Assembly (NCBI RefSeq): GCF_009914755.1
Contig: NC_060933.1
Source of the DNA: the human T2T-CHM13v2.0 reference genome, Homo sapiens
Length of the DNA: 64,000 nucleotides
Reading direction: 5' to 3' (one strand)
Both the position numbers and the translations under genes were made by a program. Below the pieces are notes generated by a model. It was not told the DNA's origin. It ran no database searches and saw nothing but the letters and a program-made list of their open reading frames with translations. Shown piece after piece: positions 3,641 to 33,264 of this stretch (its first letter is position 1; every line of letters starts with the position of its first letter).

Positions 3641-4141
3641 GAGGACTGGCTTTTTACCTCTGCAATGTCTCCTCCCCCCAGAACCCTGGTCCCTTAAATC
3701 ACACAAATCTCAATGCTGGGAAATCTCAGCTCTGTCTCAACAGCGATTCCTCAGCCTGAGAGCCATCAATGGAAGCCTGGGGCCGTCTGGACTTTTCAGT
3801 GTTAAATATGCATTCTCTCCATGCTTGTGAGAGCCTGTTCTAGACGCACCTGGCCGGGGGGCTGCCTGCTGACTCCAGCTCCTGCTTTGTTCCTCCCCCT
3901 GCCCCCACCACTGGGAATTCCAGAACAACAAGGCCTCTTGCTCACCTGGATAGCGAGGAGGGGCTGAGAAGACGCCTGGTTGCTGGCTCCGGTTGGCACC
4001 CAGCCTTGTTCTTCTCTCTTCTGCCAACTGCTTTTAATTTTATACTCTCTTGTCTTATTTTTATGAGCACTTGTGAGACATGCTTAATTGTTTGTCTTCT
4101 CCCAGAACAAGGAGGGTATAAATAAATAAATGAGAAATTCA

Positions 4142-5933: not shown

Positions 5934-6059
5934 GTTTTACAAAAATTAGAATATACCAAATAACCCTCTTGTAATATTTTTTCTACTCAATATGTTGGCA
6001 TTTTTTCATATTAATAAGTATAGCTGTATATCATCAATATAGTTTTAAAATTAATTTTT

Positions 6060-6447
6060 GATAGTACATGCACATGAATAGAGAACCCAGAAAGAGAGCT
6101 CTACGAGTATGCCCAGCTAATTTGTTGACAATGATGCAAAAAGAATGCAATAAAGTGGCTCATGCATGTAATCCCAGCACTCTGGAGGCTGAGGCAGGTG
6201 GATCACTTGAGCCCAGGAGAGTTCAAGACCAGCCTGGACAACATGGTGAAATCCTGTCTCTACTAAAAAAAAAAAAAAAGAAAAGAAAAAAGAAAAGATT
6301 AGCCAGGTGTGATGGCATGCATCTGTAGTCCCAGCTCTCGGGACATTGAGGTGGGAAGATCACCTGAGCCCAGGAGGCGGAGGTTGCAGTGAGCTGAGAT
6401 CTCTCCACTGCACTTCAGCCTGGGTGACAGAGTGAGATCCTGTCTCA

Positions 6448-6900: not shown

Positions 6901-7739
6901 AAATCACAAAAGTATTTAGATGATGAAAAGTACATTTCTTCCCCTCCCTGGGAGCAACCACTGTGCTCAGTCTCTCCATCCTTGCTTCTAAAAGCTGTGC
7001 TGTATTTCTCTGGGTGGCTGTGCCATATTTTATTGGATCAATGCCATATTGTTAGATGTTTAGGTTGTTCCTAATTTTCACCATTACAAACTGTATTATT
7101 ATGAGCATCCTTGTATATATCTTTGCTAGAAGTGAGATTTCTGGGTGGAGAAATATGTATGTGTGAAATGCTGAAATGTTGATACATGTGGCCATATTGT
7201 CCTCTACAAAGATTGTATCAATTTACACTTTGCCTGAGCGGTTTATCTTCTGACTCTAACAAGCTATTAATACTTTTCTTCCCCACTAATCCACACTTTA
7301 AATTAAGAAAGGGTACCACCAATAAAAATCTTGGAGAAACCTTTCTCTGTAGTATTACACACAAACCAGGGAGTCGGGATGGGAAACAAAGGCATAGCTT
7401 CCGTATTTATCGAATTTCTAAAAGGCAAATACATCACCTCATCGCATAGACTTTTTTTTTTAAACAGTGAAAGGAAAACGCCATACACTTTACAAGATCA
7501 ACCATGCCTAGTTTTGTTATAACATTTCCTTTAATCTTCACCTAAAAGAAGCCTTCTTGAAATCCTTTCTATCTTCACTTCCACTGCTCTGAAAAATAAA
7601 CTCTGTAACCTCTTATTTCCTAGAGAGGAAAAAAGTTGATTTTCACAGTCTAACATGCCCAGCTTAGAACGAAAAAAATTGAACAGTCAATGCCAGACGG
7701 AGCATGAGCTCCATGGTGGGGAGCTGTGTTCTGGACCAG

Positions 7740-30563: not shown

Positions 30564-30902
<339 letters not shown>

Positions 30903-31367
30903 AGGTACCACATTTTCTTGATCCAATTTGTCATTGATAAGCATTCGAGTTGGTTCCATGTCTTTGCTATTGTGAAGAGTGCTGAAATGAACGTTTGCAC
31001 GCACATGTCTTTATGGTAGAATGACTTATATTCCTTTGGGTATATATCCAGTAGTAGGATGGCTGGGTTGAATGGTAGTTCTGTTTTTAGCTCTTTGAGG
31101 AATTGCCACACTGTTTTCCACAAGGGTTGAACTAATTAACACCAACAGTGTATAAAGATTCCCTTTTCTCCACAACCTCACCAGCATCTGTTATTTTTTG
31201 ACTTTTTAATCACAGCCATTCTGATTGGTGTGAGATGGTATCTCACGGTGGTTTTGACTTGCATTTTTCTAATGATCAGTGATACTGAGTCTTTTTTTCA
31301 TATGCTTGTTGGCTGCATGTATGTCTTCTTTTGGAAAGTGTCTGTTCATGTCCTTTGCCTACTTTTT

Positions 31368-31734
31368 TTTCTTTTGCCTCAAAAAATGATATTTATTCAA
31401 AGAAAAAAAATGACAAGACGTCCATCCCTTGGCTCCTTTCCTTCCCCTCTCCTGCTGCTCCTCAGCCCTCCAAGATTGAACCCTGGCTGGGGCTAGGGAG
31501 CAGGACAGCCCCTCAGATGAGGTCAGGAACATTGAGGGGAATTTCCTCAATGGAAGTGTTGTAGAAGTTCTCGATGTTTTGAAAAGTCCCCTTGTCTTCT
31601 TCTGTCACCATGTTAATAGCCACACCCTTACGGCCAAACCATCCATCTCGACTGATTCTGTGGATATAGTTTTCCCTGTTGGTGGGAAGGTCATGGTTGA
31701 CTAAAGAAACCTGCTGCACATCAATGCCTCTGGC
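31368..31734 (-). pseudogene. EIF4A1: EIF4A1 retrocopy (last two exons spliced, 3'UTR, poly(A) remnant), 5'-truncated
   Basis: Minus strand translates [73 protein letters not shown]. This is a degenerate eIF4A1 C-terminus (DEAD-box motif V ARGID; motif VI HRIGRGGR decayed to HRISRDGW). Stop at 31513-31515, EIF4A1-like 3'UTR, AATAAA at 31392-31397, short A-tail. TSD ctttgccYacttttt at 31353-31367 and 31862-31876. Confidence 0.95.
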
Positions 31735-31802
31735 CTATGTCAAGAAAGACAACTCTTCAGCATGTGCGTGAGATGTATCTCAAAGGGAAGAGACGTAGGT
31801 AT
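31735..31802 (-). other. Retained EIF4A1 intron remnant with 3' splice site
   Basis: 68 nt between the snoRNA end and the exon, ending ...GCTGAAGAGTTGTCTTTCTTGACATAG|GCCAGAGGC (pyrimidine-rich, AG at 31736-31735). Confidence 0.8.
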
Positions 31803-31861
31803 CCGTGTAGGCAGACAAGGAAGGCAGAGGAAATAAGCATCCCTGTTCCCCAAAGACCTTA
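31803..31861 (-). pseudogene. SNORA67: 3' half (second hairpin region plus ACA box) of H/ACA snoRNA SNORA67/U67, carried in the retrocopy
   Basis: Minus strand reads TAAGGTCTTTGGGGAACAGGGATGCTTATTTCCTCTGCCTTCCTTGTCTGCCT-ACA-CGG. This matches my recollection of the SNORA67 3' end (…UAAGGUCUUUGAGGAACAGGGAUGCUUAUUUCCUCUGCCUUCCUUGGCUGCCUACAUAG). ACA box at 31808-31806, 3 nt from the end. SNORA67 is an EIF4A1 intronic snoRNA. Confidence 0.85.
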
Positions 31862-32944
31862 CTTTGCCCACTTTTTAATGGGGTTGCTTTTCCCTTGTAA
31901 ATTTGTTTAAGTTCCTTATAGATGTTGGATATCAGACCTTTGTCAGATACATAGTTTGCAAATAGGTTTTCCCATTCTGTGGGTTGCCTGTTTACTCTGT
32001 TGTTAGTTTGTTTTGTTGTGCAGAAGCTCTTAAGCTTAATTAGATCCTACTTGCCAATTTTTGCTTTTGTGGCGATTGCTTTTGGTGTCTTTGCCATGAA
32101 ATATTTGCCCATTCCTATGTCCAGGATGGTATTGCCTGGATTGTCTTCCAGGGTTTGTATAGTTTTGGGTTTTACATTTAAGTGGTTATTCCATCTTGAT
32201 TTGATTTTTGTGTATGGTGTGAGGAAGGGGTCCAGTTTCAATCTTCTGCATATGGCTACCCAGTTATCCAAGCACCATTTATTGAATAGGGAGTCTTTTC
32301 CCCATTGCTTGTTTTTGTCAGCTTTGTCAAAGATCAGATGGTCCTAAGTGTACAGCCTTATTTCTGGGCTCTCTATTCTGCTCCATTGGTCTATGTGCCT
32401 GATTTTGTACTGGTACCATGCTGTTTTGGTTAGTGTAGCCCTGTAGTATACTTTGAAGTTGGGTAATATGATGTCTCCAGCTTTGCTCTTTTTGCTTAGG
32501 ATTTCCTTGGCTGTTCAGGCTCTTTTTTCCTTCCATATGAATTTTAAAGTAGTTTTTTTTCTAGTTCTGTGAATACTGTCATTGGTAGTTTGATAGGAAT
32601 AGCATTGAATCTGTAAATTGCTTTGGGCAGTATGACCATTTTAATGATATTTATTTCCTATCCAGGAGCATAGGATGTTTTCCCATTTGTTTGTGTCTTC
32701 TCTGATTTCTTGGAGCAGTGTTTTGTAATTCTCATTGTAGAGATCTTTTACCTCCCAGGTTAGCTGTATTCCTAAGTATTTTATTCTTTCTGTGGCGATT
32801 GTGAATGGGATTGCCTTCCTGATTTGGCTCTTGGCTTGGCTATCGCTTGTATAGAGGAATGCTAGTGATTTTTGTACATTGACTTTGTATCCTGAAACTG
32901 TGCTGAAGTTGTGTATCAGCTGAAGGAACTTTTGGGCCGTTGGT

Positions 32945-33264
32945 TTTGTTTGTTTGTTTGTTTGTTTGTTTGTTTTTGAGACAGGATCTCACTCTGTTGC
33001 CCAGGTTGGGGTGCAGTGATGCAATCATAGCTCACTGAAGCTTTCATCTCCTGGGTTCAAATGCTCCTCCTACCTCAGTCTCCCGAGTATCTGGAAGCAC
33101 AGCTGTGTGCCACCAAGGCTGGCTAATTTTTGGATTTTTTTTGTAGAGATGGGGGGGTCTCCCTGTGTTGTCCAGGCTGGTCTTGGACTCCTGGGCTCAA
33201 GTTATGCTCCTGCCTTGGTTTCCCAAAGTGCTAGGATTACAGGCATGAGCTGCTGTGCCCAGCC
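32945..33264 (-). mobile_element. AluJ
   Basis: Dimer with (TTTG)n tail. Confidence 0.85.

What the first reader, a model, noticed from the sequence alone, without database searches (positions are those of the whole stretch)
31353..31876. Retro-fossil of a SNORA67-retaining or snoRNA-led polyadenylated EIF4A1 RNA
Seen in the sequence: one L1-type insertion with a 15-bp TSD (1 mismatch), a TTTTT/AA endonuclease site, AATAAA and an A-tail. Its minus strand reads 59 nt ending in ACAnnn, then 68 nt of intron ending TTTCTTGACATAG, then exon GCCAGAGGC...CCACAG joined to AATC..., stop and 3'UTR. Recalled knowledge: the first part is the 3' half of SNORA67, hosted in a late EIF4A1 intron, and YIHR|IG is the last exon junction. 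The last intron is therefore spliced out while the snoRNA intron is kept. Inference: the RNA captured in a primate germline was not mature mRNA. It was either a snoRNA-intron-retaining transcript, or a 5'-snoRNA-protected, 3'-polyadenylated species (SPA-like, here H/ACA-type) left after cleavage and trimming of such a transcript. The 5' end falls just inside the second snoRNA hairpin, as expected if reverse transcription stalled in a structured snoRNP. This would be a dated record of an unusual RNA class.
Basis: partly seen in the sequence, partly recalled or inferred. Interest (0 to 1): 0.85.

Follow-up and report, generated by a model that had tools for sequence, protein, structure and literature searches.

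The report
Truncated SNORA67–EIF4A1 snoRNA retroposon (Type-3)
This is an old L1-inserted DNA copy of an EIF4A1 RNA that began at the SNORA67 snoRNA and not at the gene's start, and both this kind of fossil and the RNA behind it are already described.

Summary
Window 31369-31861 (minus strand) holds the last 59 nt of SNORA67, then the 68-nt rest of its EIF4A1 intron, then the penultimate exon. That exon is spliced exactly to the last exon, and stop codon, 3'UTR and AATAAA follow. A 15-bp duplication (14/15) of an L1 target brackets the insert.

The parent locus on contig 17 confirms every boundary. Three independent sister copies (contigs 7, 8, 1) have the same architecture and start exactly at SNORA67 nt 1. 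A snoRNA-plus-intron copy on contig 6 starts there too. None of the 6 non-parent copies holds the 37 nt of intron upstream of the snoRNA. So the snoRNA-led reading is favoured (about 0.8). The window copy is a 5'-truncated version.

This is not a new class. Weber 2006 defined exactly this as "Type-3 snoRTs", truncated versions included. Luo & Li 2007 list the four sister U67 copies but no chr9 copy. Zacchini 2022 showed the living RNA: a dyskerin-bound, polyadenylated, NMD-dependent 3' EIF4A1 snoRT.

New here are only an unlisted fifth member and the fact that RefSeq EIF4A1P3 stops 127 bp short. Interest is low.

The parts
31862..31876 (-). 5' target-site duplication (15 bp). It lies in an old L1, and the plus strand reads TTTTT/AA at the nick.
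   Evidence: for the sequence; 8 of 11 paralogous L1 copies carry the 15-mer once, contiguous with the downstream flank.
31803..31861 (-). SNORA67 nt 79-137. This is most of the 3' hairpin plus the ACA box (31808-31806) and 3 nt. The 5' hairpin, the H box and the basal 5' strand of hairpin 2 are missing.
   Evidence: RF00272, 42 bits, E 2.4e-6. One search places the parent snoRNA at L019 7203-7339; the copy starts at L019 7281.
31735..31802 (-). The whole part of the EIF4A1 intron downstream of SNORA67, as far as its 3' splice site. It is 68 nt here and 73 nt in the parent.
   Evidence: It is contiguous with the snoRNA and the exon in the parent.
31658..31734 (-). Penultimate EIF4A1 exon (77 nt, with a 3-nt deletion).
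   Evidence: Helicase_C tail, E 2e-4.
31513..31657 (-). Coding part of the last exon, joined exactly at the exon-exon junction (31658|31657). The stop TGA is at 31515-31513.
   Evidence: 73-aa open frame, NYIHR|IS...DLI*.
31369..31512 (-). 3'UTR up to the proximal poly(A) site. AATAAA is at 31397-31392.
   Evidence: Parent homology ends at GAGGCAAAAGAA.
31363..31370 (-). A-run of 8 A. Two match the parent and five are shared with the TSD, so the untemplated tail is at most about 1-3 nt today.
31353..31367 (-). 3' target-site duplication (15 bp). It carries one G>A change relative to the 5' copy and to the paralogous L1 copies.

Best explanation
The element is a 5'-truncated 'Type-3 snoRNA retroposon'.

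Proposed mechanism, in order:
1. In a primate germline, EIF4A1 transcripts that kept the SNORA67 intron carried an assembled H/ACA RNP on the snoRNA.
2. The retained intron puts a stop codon 21 nt upstream of the snoRNA, so the transcript is an NMD target.
3. The transcript was cleaved, and 5'->3' exonucleolytic trimming ran down to the snoRNP. This left an uncapped RNA that begins at SNORA67 nt 1. It continues through the rest of the intron, which can no longer be spliced because its 5' splice site is gone. It has the last intron removed and ends in a normal poly(A) tail.
4. L1 ORF2p used this RNA in trans. It nicked TTTTT/AA inside an old L1 and primed on the poly(A).
5. It copied 493 nt, stopped 78 nt short of the RNA's 5' end, and left a 15-bp TSD.

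Shown here: the anatomy, the parent boundaries, the TSD and empty site, the sister copies starting at nt 1, and the premature stop codon.
Inferred: the snoRNP cap, the NMD/exonuclease route, and the assignment of this particular truncated copy to the snoRNA-led RNA and not the full-length RNA.
For: Sister copies:
- copies on contigs 7, 8 and 1 start at L019 7203, which is SNORA67 nt 1. They keep the snoRNA and the downstream intron and lack the last intron.
- the contig-1 copy has a perfect 17-bp TSD directly abutting nt 1.
- a genome search with the whole 246-nt intron gave 6 non-parent hits. None of the 6 includes the 37 nt upstream of the snoRNA. Five begin at nt 1. One of these is a local duplicate of the contig-1 junction and one is a snoRNA-plus-intron-only copy on contig 6. 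The sixth hit is the window copy.
- the four exon-bearing copies share no flanks; the contig-7 copy uses the distal poly(A) site. They are therefore independent events.
- old spliced retrocopies share the window copy's 3'UTR states. The copies therefore derive from the parent gene at different times, not from one another.

The premature stop:
- the exon frame runs into TGA then TAG at codons 6-7 of the intron. Searches put the last exon junction 310 nt further downstream.

Literature:
- Weber 2006 (PMC1687206; passages and section 8 read) defines this architecture, notes truncated versions, and proposes cleavage plus exonucleolytic trimming to the snoRNA 5' end.
- Zacchini 2022 (PMC9394076; passages) reports that 86.3% of SNORA67-intron-bearing EIF4A1 RNA in MCF7 cells is a 5'-truncated fragment. 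That fragment is dyskerin-bound, oligo-dT-primed and sensitive to NMD inhibitors.
Against: The window copy is itself 5'-truncated. On its own it cannot be told from a truncated copy of a full-length intron-retaining mRNA.

The 5'-RACE end reported for the modern RNA lies 'at the end of the exon which precedes' the intron. That is at least about 38 nt upstream of the fossils' 5' ends, so the modern RNA and the fossil RNA are not shown to be identical.

TSDs of the contig-7 and contig-8 copies are decayed. Their start at nt 1 rests on the alignment, not on a clean TSD.

The sample is small: 3 exon-bearing sister events plus one Type-2.
Confidence: 0.8

Rival explanations
1. The template was a full-length, capped EIF4A1 transcript that retained the SNORA67 intron, or a splicing intermediate in which the last intron was removed first. 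L1 reverse transcription simply broke off 493 nt from the 3' end. That point happens to lie inside the snoRNA.
For: 5' truncation is the rule for L1-mediated copies. Four other EIF4A1 copies are truncated inside the last exon. Full-length intron-retaining EIF4A1 RNA exists, at 13.7% of intron-bearing molecules in MCF7 (PMC9394076). Nothing in the window copy itself excludes this reading.
Against: None of the 6 other genomic copies of this intron includes any sequence upstream of SNORA67 nt 1. All 3 independent exon-bearing sisters end exactly at nt 1. The pool of intron-bearing RNA open to retroposition was therefore dominated by the snoRNA-led form.
Confidence: 0.17
2. The element is a chimeric retrocopy. 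L1 reverse transcriptase switched template from the 3' end of mature EIF4A1 mRNA to free SNORA67 RNA.
For: Template-switch chimeras such as U6-L1 and snoRNA-Alu are known. Luo & Li report one H/ACA-Alu chimera.
Against: The 68 nt between the snoRNA and the exon are the contiguous parental intron, up to its 3' splice site. Mature snoRNA and mature mRNA both lack this stretch.
Confidence: 0.01
3. The element is a DNA-level duplication or gene-conversion tract from the EIF4A1 locus, not a retrocopy.
For: None beyond the presence of intronic sequence.
Against: The 97-nt last intron is removed exactly at its splice sites. The copy ends at the poly(A) cleavage site downstream of AATAAA. A 15-bp TSD at a TTTTT/AA site brackets it.
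Confidence: 0.01

Closest known systems
Type-3 snoRNA retroposons (snoRTs), Weber 2006, PLoS Genet 2:e205 (PMC1687206)
   Same: They share the snoRNA, the entire downstream intron, the processed 3' exons, the poly(A) end, the TSD and the L1 endonuclease site. The paper explicitly notes 5'-truncated versions. For U70/RPL10 it counts 30 of 42 pseudogenes as Type-3, 12 of them with a partial snoRNA.
   Different: SNORA67 (U67) and EIF4A1 do not occur in the main text (0 hits). Table 3 and Figure S3 could not be seen.
H/ACA snoRNA retrogenes U67b-e, Luo & Li 2007, NAR 35:559 (PMC1802619)
   Same: Table 1 lists U67 retrogenes on chr7, chr1, chr8 and chr6. These are the chromosomes that hold the only full-length non-parent SNORA67 hits in this genome. 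Their Fig. 1D/E class is 'partially processed, exon-containing hnRNAs'.
   Different: No chr9 entry is listed. The window copy, with only 59 nt of snoRNA, is not among the four U67 rows.
3' EIF4A1 snoRT fragment, Zacchini et al. 2022, Genome Biol 23:177 (PMC9394076); 3'-snoRTs, PMC12152556 (2025)
   Same: It comes from the same gene, the same retained SNORA67 intron and the same downstream exons. It is polyadenylated, 5'-truncated, bound by dyskerin, NHP2 and GAR1, and linked to NMD.
   Different: That is a living RNA in cancer cell lines, whereas this is a germline DNA fossil. The reported RACE 5' end is at the end of the preceding exon, not at snoRNA nt 1. Neither paper mentions retroposons or pseudogenes (0 hits).
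SPA lncRNAs and the cytoplasmic cSPA (SNORD86/NOP56)
   Same: They follow the same logic: a snoRNP at the 5' end blocks a 5'->3' exonuclease, and the 3' end is a normal poly(A) tail.
   Different: Those examples are box C/D. This is known to me from review passages and from citations; the primary papers were not read. Here the cap would be a box H/ACA RNP, and it is only inferred from DNA.
Ordinary processed pseudogene (RefSeq EIF4A1P3, 31369-31734)
   Same: It shares the L1-mediated origin, the spliced exons, the poly(A) end and the TSD.
   Different: It carries 127 bp of intron plus snoRNA (31735-31861) that the RefSeq span leaves out.

Membership tests
Type-3 snoRT (Weber 2006) | [quoted passage not shown] | tested here: met
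   The window copy starts at SNORA67 nt 79, so it is the truncated version. The sister copies start at nt 1.
Type-3 snoRT (Weber 2006) | Contains the entire intronic sequence downstream of the snoRNA | tested here: met
   31802-31735 aligns to L019 7340-7412, up to the 3' splice-site AG.
Type-3 snoRT (Weber 2006) | Followed by the processed (spliced) downstream exons of the host gene | tested here: met
   The 97-nt last intron is absent exactly at CCACAG|AATC.
Type-3 snoRT (Weber 2006) | Poly(A) end at the host gene's polyadenylation site | tested here: met
   Homology ends at the same GAGGCAAAAGAA as in the other copies, 22 nt after AATAAA. The A-run is now only 8 nt.
Type-3 snoRT (Weber 2006) | TSD and L1 endonuclease target | tested here: met
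   A 15-bp TSD matching at 14 of 15 positions, a TTTTT/AA site, and the empty site seen in 8 of 11 paralogous L1 copies.
SPA / cSPA-type RNA (5' snoRNP-ended, 3' polyadenylated) | The RNA 5' end coincides with the snoRNA 5' end | tested here: inconclusive
   Met for the sister fossils. It cannot be read from the truncated window copy, and no RNA data are available here.
SPA / cSPA-type RNA (5' snoRNP-ended, 3' polyadenylated) | snoRNP proteins protect the 5' end, and formation depends on exonuclease and NMD or read-through | not testable with these tools
   Only published data on the modern RNA bear on this (PMC9394076).
Functional SNORA67 gene copy | Complete hairpin-hinge(H box)-hairpin-ACA structure | tested here: not met
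   Only nt 79-137 are present, and the Rfam score of 42 bits is under the cut-off of 45.

The most novel reading that the evidence does not exclude
The SNORA67/EIF4A1 fossils may be a germline record of the same dyskerin-capped, NMD-derived 3' EIF4A1 snoRT that was found in 2022 in cancer cells.

Three observations bear on this:
- Four independent exon-bearing copies were made over a long span (94.9%, 93.4%, 91.1% and 89.4% identity in the last exon).
- They make up 4 of the 11 independent EIF4A1 retrocopies that reach the penultimate exon.
- A stop codon lies 21 nt upstream of the snoRNA.

If the reading holds, this H/ACA-led poly(A) RNA has been made in the primate germline for tens of millions of years. 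It would also be retroposed far more often than its abundance relative to the mRNA predicts. That would suggest that uncapped, untranslated, snoRNP-headed poly(A) RNAs are preferred trans-templates of L1. Type-3 snoRTs could then serve as a genome-wide catalogue of cSPA-type RNAs. The two RNA papers I checked do not make this link. One review mentions both topics without joining them, in the passages I saw.
Probability: 0.35. Interest if true: 0.45.

Novelty: new member of a known kind. Interest (0 to 1): 0.2.

Why it matters
It matters little on its own. It corrects the extent of one annotated pseudogene: EIF4A1P3 should run to 31861, not 31734. It also adds a fifth, truncated SNORA67 retroposon to the four in print.

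Its modest wider value lies in the SNORA67 fossils taken together. They independently fix the 5' end of an EIF4A1-derived snoRNA-led poly(A) RNA at snoRNA nt 1. They also show that this RNA existed in the germline long before it was found in cell lines. The retroposon literature of 2006-2007 and the snoRT/cSPA literature of 2018-2025 describe the same molecules. In the papers I checked, the later RNA work does not cite the retroposon work.

Tried and rejected
- Template-switch chimera and DNA-level duplication were rejected on anatomy (contiguous intron; exact splice, poly(A) site and TSD).
- 'Copy of a copy' (one master retrocopy seeding the others) was rejected. The four copies share no flanks. 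One uses a different poly(A) site. The 3'UTR states shared by the three older Type-3 copies are also found in old, normally spliced retrocopies, so they are ancestral states of the parent.
- Microhomology at the 5' junction: none at the junction itself. The 4-nt similarity that lets Rfam run on into the flank is offset by one base and is taken as chance.
- Pfam on the flanks was meant to prove L1 identity and gave little. RVT_1 matched at E 0.0097, under its cut-off, for 32641-32988(-), and there was no hit for three other flank frames. L1-type high copy number was shown instead by the genome search (7661 first-look candidates; 40 scored, the 39 other than the window itself at 87-89% identity). 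The name 'L1 ORF2 3' region' is my recollection.
- Dating by orthologues was not possible because no other primate genome is held. Only a rough relative order could be given from identity to the parent.
Table 3 and Figure S3 there, and the supplements of Luo & Li, may list U67 Type-3 copies, possibly this one.
Full report
**What is in the window**

Read on the minus strand, the stretch 31876-31353 has this layout:
- 31876-31862: a 15-bp direct repeat (5' TSD).
- 31861-31803: 59 nt that Rfam assigns to the 3' part of SNORA67 (RF00272, 42 bits, E 2.4e-6). They end in ACA plus three bases.
- 31802-31735: 68 nt ending in a 3' splice-site TAG.
- 31734-31513: an open frame of 73 codons. Its start hits the tail of the Helicase_C domain (E 2e-4).
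- 31512-31369: a 3'UTR, with AATAAA at 31397-31392.
- 31370-31363: an 8-A run.
- 31367-31353: the second copy of the repeat, matching at 14 of 15 positions.

The Rfam row is printed as 31803-31901. The part beyond 31861 is a forced alignment to the flank.

**The parent gene**

A search of the window's own genome with 31369-31861 gave 18 rows. One row is the window itself. Two rows on contig 17 are the parent gene. Query 1-204 matches in one piece (88% identity, E 5.2e-68), and query 202-493 matches 94 bases further on (91%, E 5.8e-112).

I fetched contig 17:7475000-7484500 as L019. Rfam finds three snoRNAs in it at gathering level:
- SNORA48 at 3961-4095
- SNORD10 at 6059-6200
- SNORA67 at 7203-7339

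The boundaries, read, are:
- The exon before the snoRNA intron ends at 7164.
- The intron runs from 7165 (GTGAGT) to 7412 (TAG).
- The penultimate exon is 7413-7492.
- The last intron is 7493-7589 (GTAAGC...TTCCAG, 97 nt).
- The last exon starts at 7590.

The window copy starts at L019 7281, which is snoRNA nt 79. It is collinear with the parent through snoRNA, intron and exon, and it lacks the last intron exactly. The translations read NYIHR|IGRGG in the parent and [10 protein letters not shown] in the copy.

**The insertion site**

The flanks belong to a high-copy repeat. One search gave 7661 first-look candidates. Forty were scored, and the 39 other than the window itself were 87-89% identical to the 239-bp upstream flank. 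I recognise this repeat as the 3' part of L1 ORF2. The only tool support for the name is a sub-threshold RVT_1 match further upstream (E 0.0097), plus NCBI's repeat masking of 31003-31420.

In 8 of the 11 paralogous copies examined, the 15-mer occurs once and runs straight into the sequence that follows the window's 3' TSD. Two others have an Alu at the same spot, and one diverges there. This serves as an empty-site proof of both borders. It also shows that the mismatch arose in the 3' TSD copy. On the plus strand the nick site reads TTTTT/AA, which I recall as the L1 endonuclease consensus. The untemplated A-tail is nearly gone.

**Which RNA was copied**

In one search, 15 rows lie outside the window and the parent. 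They fall into three groups:
- Three cover the whole query (contigs 7, 8 and 1).
- Eight start at the penultimate exon.
- Four lie only in the last exon and are uninformative.

Aligning the parent locus to all of them gave two results. The eight have the exons joined across the SNORA67 intron, so they are normally spliced. The three have snoRNA, downstream intron and spliced last exons, and all three start at L019 7203, which is nt 1 of SNORA67. For the contig-1 copy, a perfect 17-bp TSD abuts that first base. The TSDs of the other two are decayed.

A second genome search used the complete 246-nt intron and found six non-parent places:
- None of the six contains the 37 nt between the 5' splice site and the snoRNA.
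- Five begin at snoRNA nt 1.
- The sixth is the window copy.

Of the five, one (contig 1, 5 kb upstream of the other contig-1 copy) has the same upstream flank and is cut by an Alu. It is a local duplicate, not a separate event. One (contig 6) has the snoRNA plus intron and no exons.

The Rfam family search of the genome found the same places and no others above the cut-off.

The four exon-bearing copies are independent events:
- They share no flanking sequence.
- The contig-7 copy ends at a distal poly(A) site (L019 about 8254).
- Their identities to the parent's last exon differ: 94.9%, 93.4%, 91.1% (window) and 89.4%.

The X and Y spliced copies share both flanks over 1.1 kb and count as one event. 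So of 11 independent EIF4A1 retrocopies that reach the penultimate exon, 4 derive from an RNA that began at, or was truncated within, SNORA67.

An RNA species starting at the mature snoRNA 5' end therefore existed and was retroposed repeatedly. The window copy is most simply a copy of it that stopped 78 nt short. A truncated copy of a full-length intron-retaining mRNA cannot be excluded for this one locus. With 0 of 6 other intron-bearing places extending upstream of the snoRNA, I put it at about 0.17.

**How the RNA arises (inferred)**

The exon frame reads into the retained intron and meets TGA then TAG at codons 6 and 7. The first stop is L019 7180-7182, which is 21 nt upstream of the snoRNA and 310 nt upstream of the last exon junction. 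By the usual 50-55-nt rule (recalled), the intron-retaining mRNA is an NMD substrate.

Cleavage near the stop, followed by 5'->3' trimming to the H/ACA RNP, would give exactly the fossil's template. The remaining half-intron has lost its 5' splice site and cannot be removed.

**Relative age**

Over 493 aligned bases the window copy differs from the parent at 45 (9.1%; Jukes-Cantor 0.097). The segment borders in that script are one base off, but the totals are unaffected.

At five 3'UTR and coding columns, the window copy shares states with the contig-7 and contig-8 Type-3 copies. It also shares them with old spliced retrocopies (contigs 13, 10 and 14). These states differ from the parent and from the younger copies. 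They are ancestral parent states and place the window copy in the older cohort. Luo & Li call U67c (chr1) ape-specific.

I estimate an age of tens of millions of years. A date needs orthologous loci, which I could not search.

**Comparison with what is known**

- **Weber 2006** (PMC1687206; passages, section 8 in full) defines Type-3 snoRTs. [quoted passage not shown] He also notes that such copies had been annotated as processed pseudogenes with the intronic part overlooked. That is what has happened to EIF4A1P3, whose RefSeq span ends at 31734. U67 and EIF4A do not occur in his main text. The 'ACA67' in that paper is a different snoRNA, whose parental copy lies in ODC1. His tables and supplements were not visible.
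- **Luo & Li 2007** (PMC1802619; passages) list U67b (chr7), U67c (chr1), U67d (chr8) and U67e (chr6). These chromosomes match. There is no chr9 entry among the U67 rows.
- **Zacchini et al. 2022** (PMC9394076; passages) describe the RNA itself. An EIF4A1 isoform retains the SNORA67 intron. In MCF7 cells, 86.3% of it is a 5'-truncated 3' fragment. That fragment is bound by dyskerin, NHP2 and GAR1 and is mainly cytoplasmic. It is detected with oligo-dT priming, stabilised by dyskerin and reduced by NMD inhibitors. The authors compare it with cSPA RNA. [quoted passage not shown]
- **A 2025 paper** (PMC12152556; passages) separates '3'-snoRT' from 'FL-snoRT' using nanopore data, for EIF4A1-SNORA67 among others.
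- Neither RNA paper contains the words retropos-, retrogene, pseudogene or Weber.
- Searches for cSPA plus retropos- plus snoRNA, and for SPA lncRNA plus snoRNA plus retrotranspos-, returned one relevant review (PMC11028025). In the passages shown it treats the two topics separately.

**Verdict**

It amounts to an independent rediscovery of a class described in 2006, and of an RNA shown experimentally in 2022.

What is new is minor:
- An unlisted, truncated fifth SNORA67 retroposon.
- A pseudogene annotation that is 127 bp too short.
- The note that the fossils and the modern RNA fit together, including the stop codon 21 nt upstream of the snoRNA.

Noticed in passing
L019 7180-7185 (contig 17 parent locus): If the SNORA67 intron is retained, the EIF4A1 frame hits TGA then TAG at intron codons 6-7, only 21 nt upstream of SNORA67 nt 1. 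An NMD cleavage near the stop would need almost no trimming to reach the snoRNP.
   Followed up: partly
L019 7203-7339 versus L027, L028 and L029: The human parental SNORA67 scores lower against the Rfam model (135.3 bits) than three of its retrocopies (152.2, 147.6 and 143.4). At several snoRNA positions all retrocopies agree against the parent. The parent therefore seems to have changed after the copies were made, and the fossils preserve older snoRNA states.
   Followed up: partly
L035 and L040 (paralogous L1 copies on contigs 23 and 4): In 2 of the 11 paralogous L1 copies examined, an Alu sits at the same target motif that received the EIF4A1/SNORA67 copy in the window. This L1 ORF2 site looks like a recurrent L1-endonuclease target.
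   Followed up: no
L026 (contig 1:178551512-178551618) and L004: A second, partial SNORA67 copy lies 5 kb upstream of the contig-1 Type-3 copy. It has the same upstream flank and TSD-like sequence and is interrupted by an Alu after about 70 nt. This is a local duplication of the insertion junction, not a new retroposition.
   Followed up: partly
L024 (contig 6:11578064-11578257): This SNORA67 copy has about 55 nt or more of downstream intron and no exons, followed by an A-rich stretch. It fits Weber's Type-2 class and probably Luo & Li's U67e.
   Followed up: partly
L002 (contig 7:89.70 Mb): This Type-3 copy runs to a distal poly(A) site about 375 nt beyond the one used by the other copies (L019 about 8254). 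The snoRNA-led RNA therefore existed in both 3'UTR isoforms.
   Followed up: no
L005 (contig 23) and L006 (contig 24): The spliced EIF4A1 retrocopies on X and Y share both flanks over 1.1 kb at 93-97% identity. This is one insertion that was later duplicated between the sex chromosomes.
   Followed up: partly
window 30800-30901 (-): An SRP-RNA-like match (40.8 bits, under the cut-off of 70), cut off by the edge of the stretch searched. It is most likely an Alu element next to the L1.
   Followed up: no
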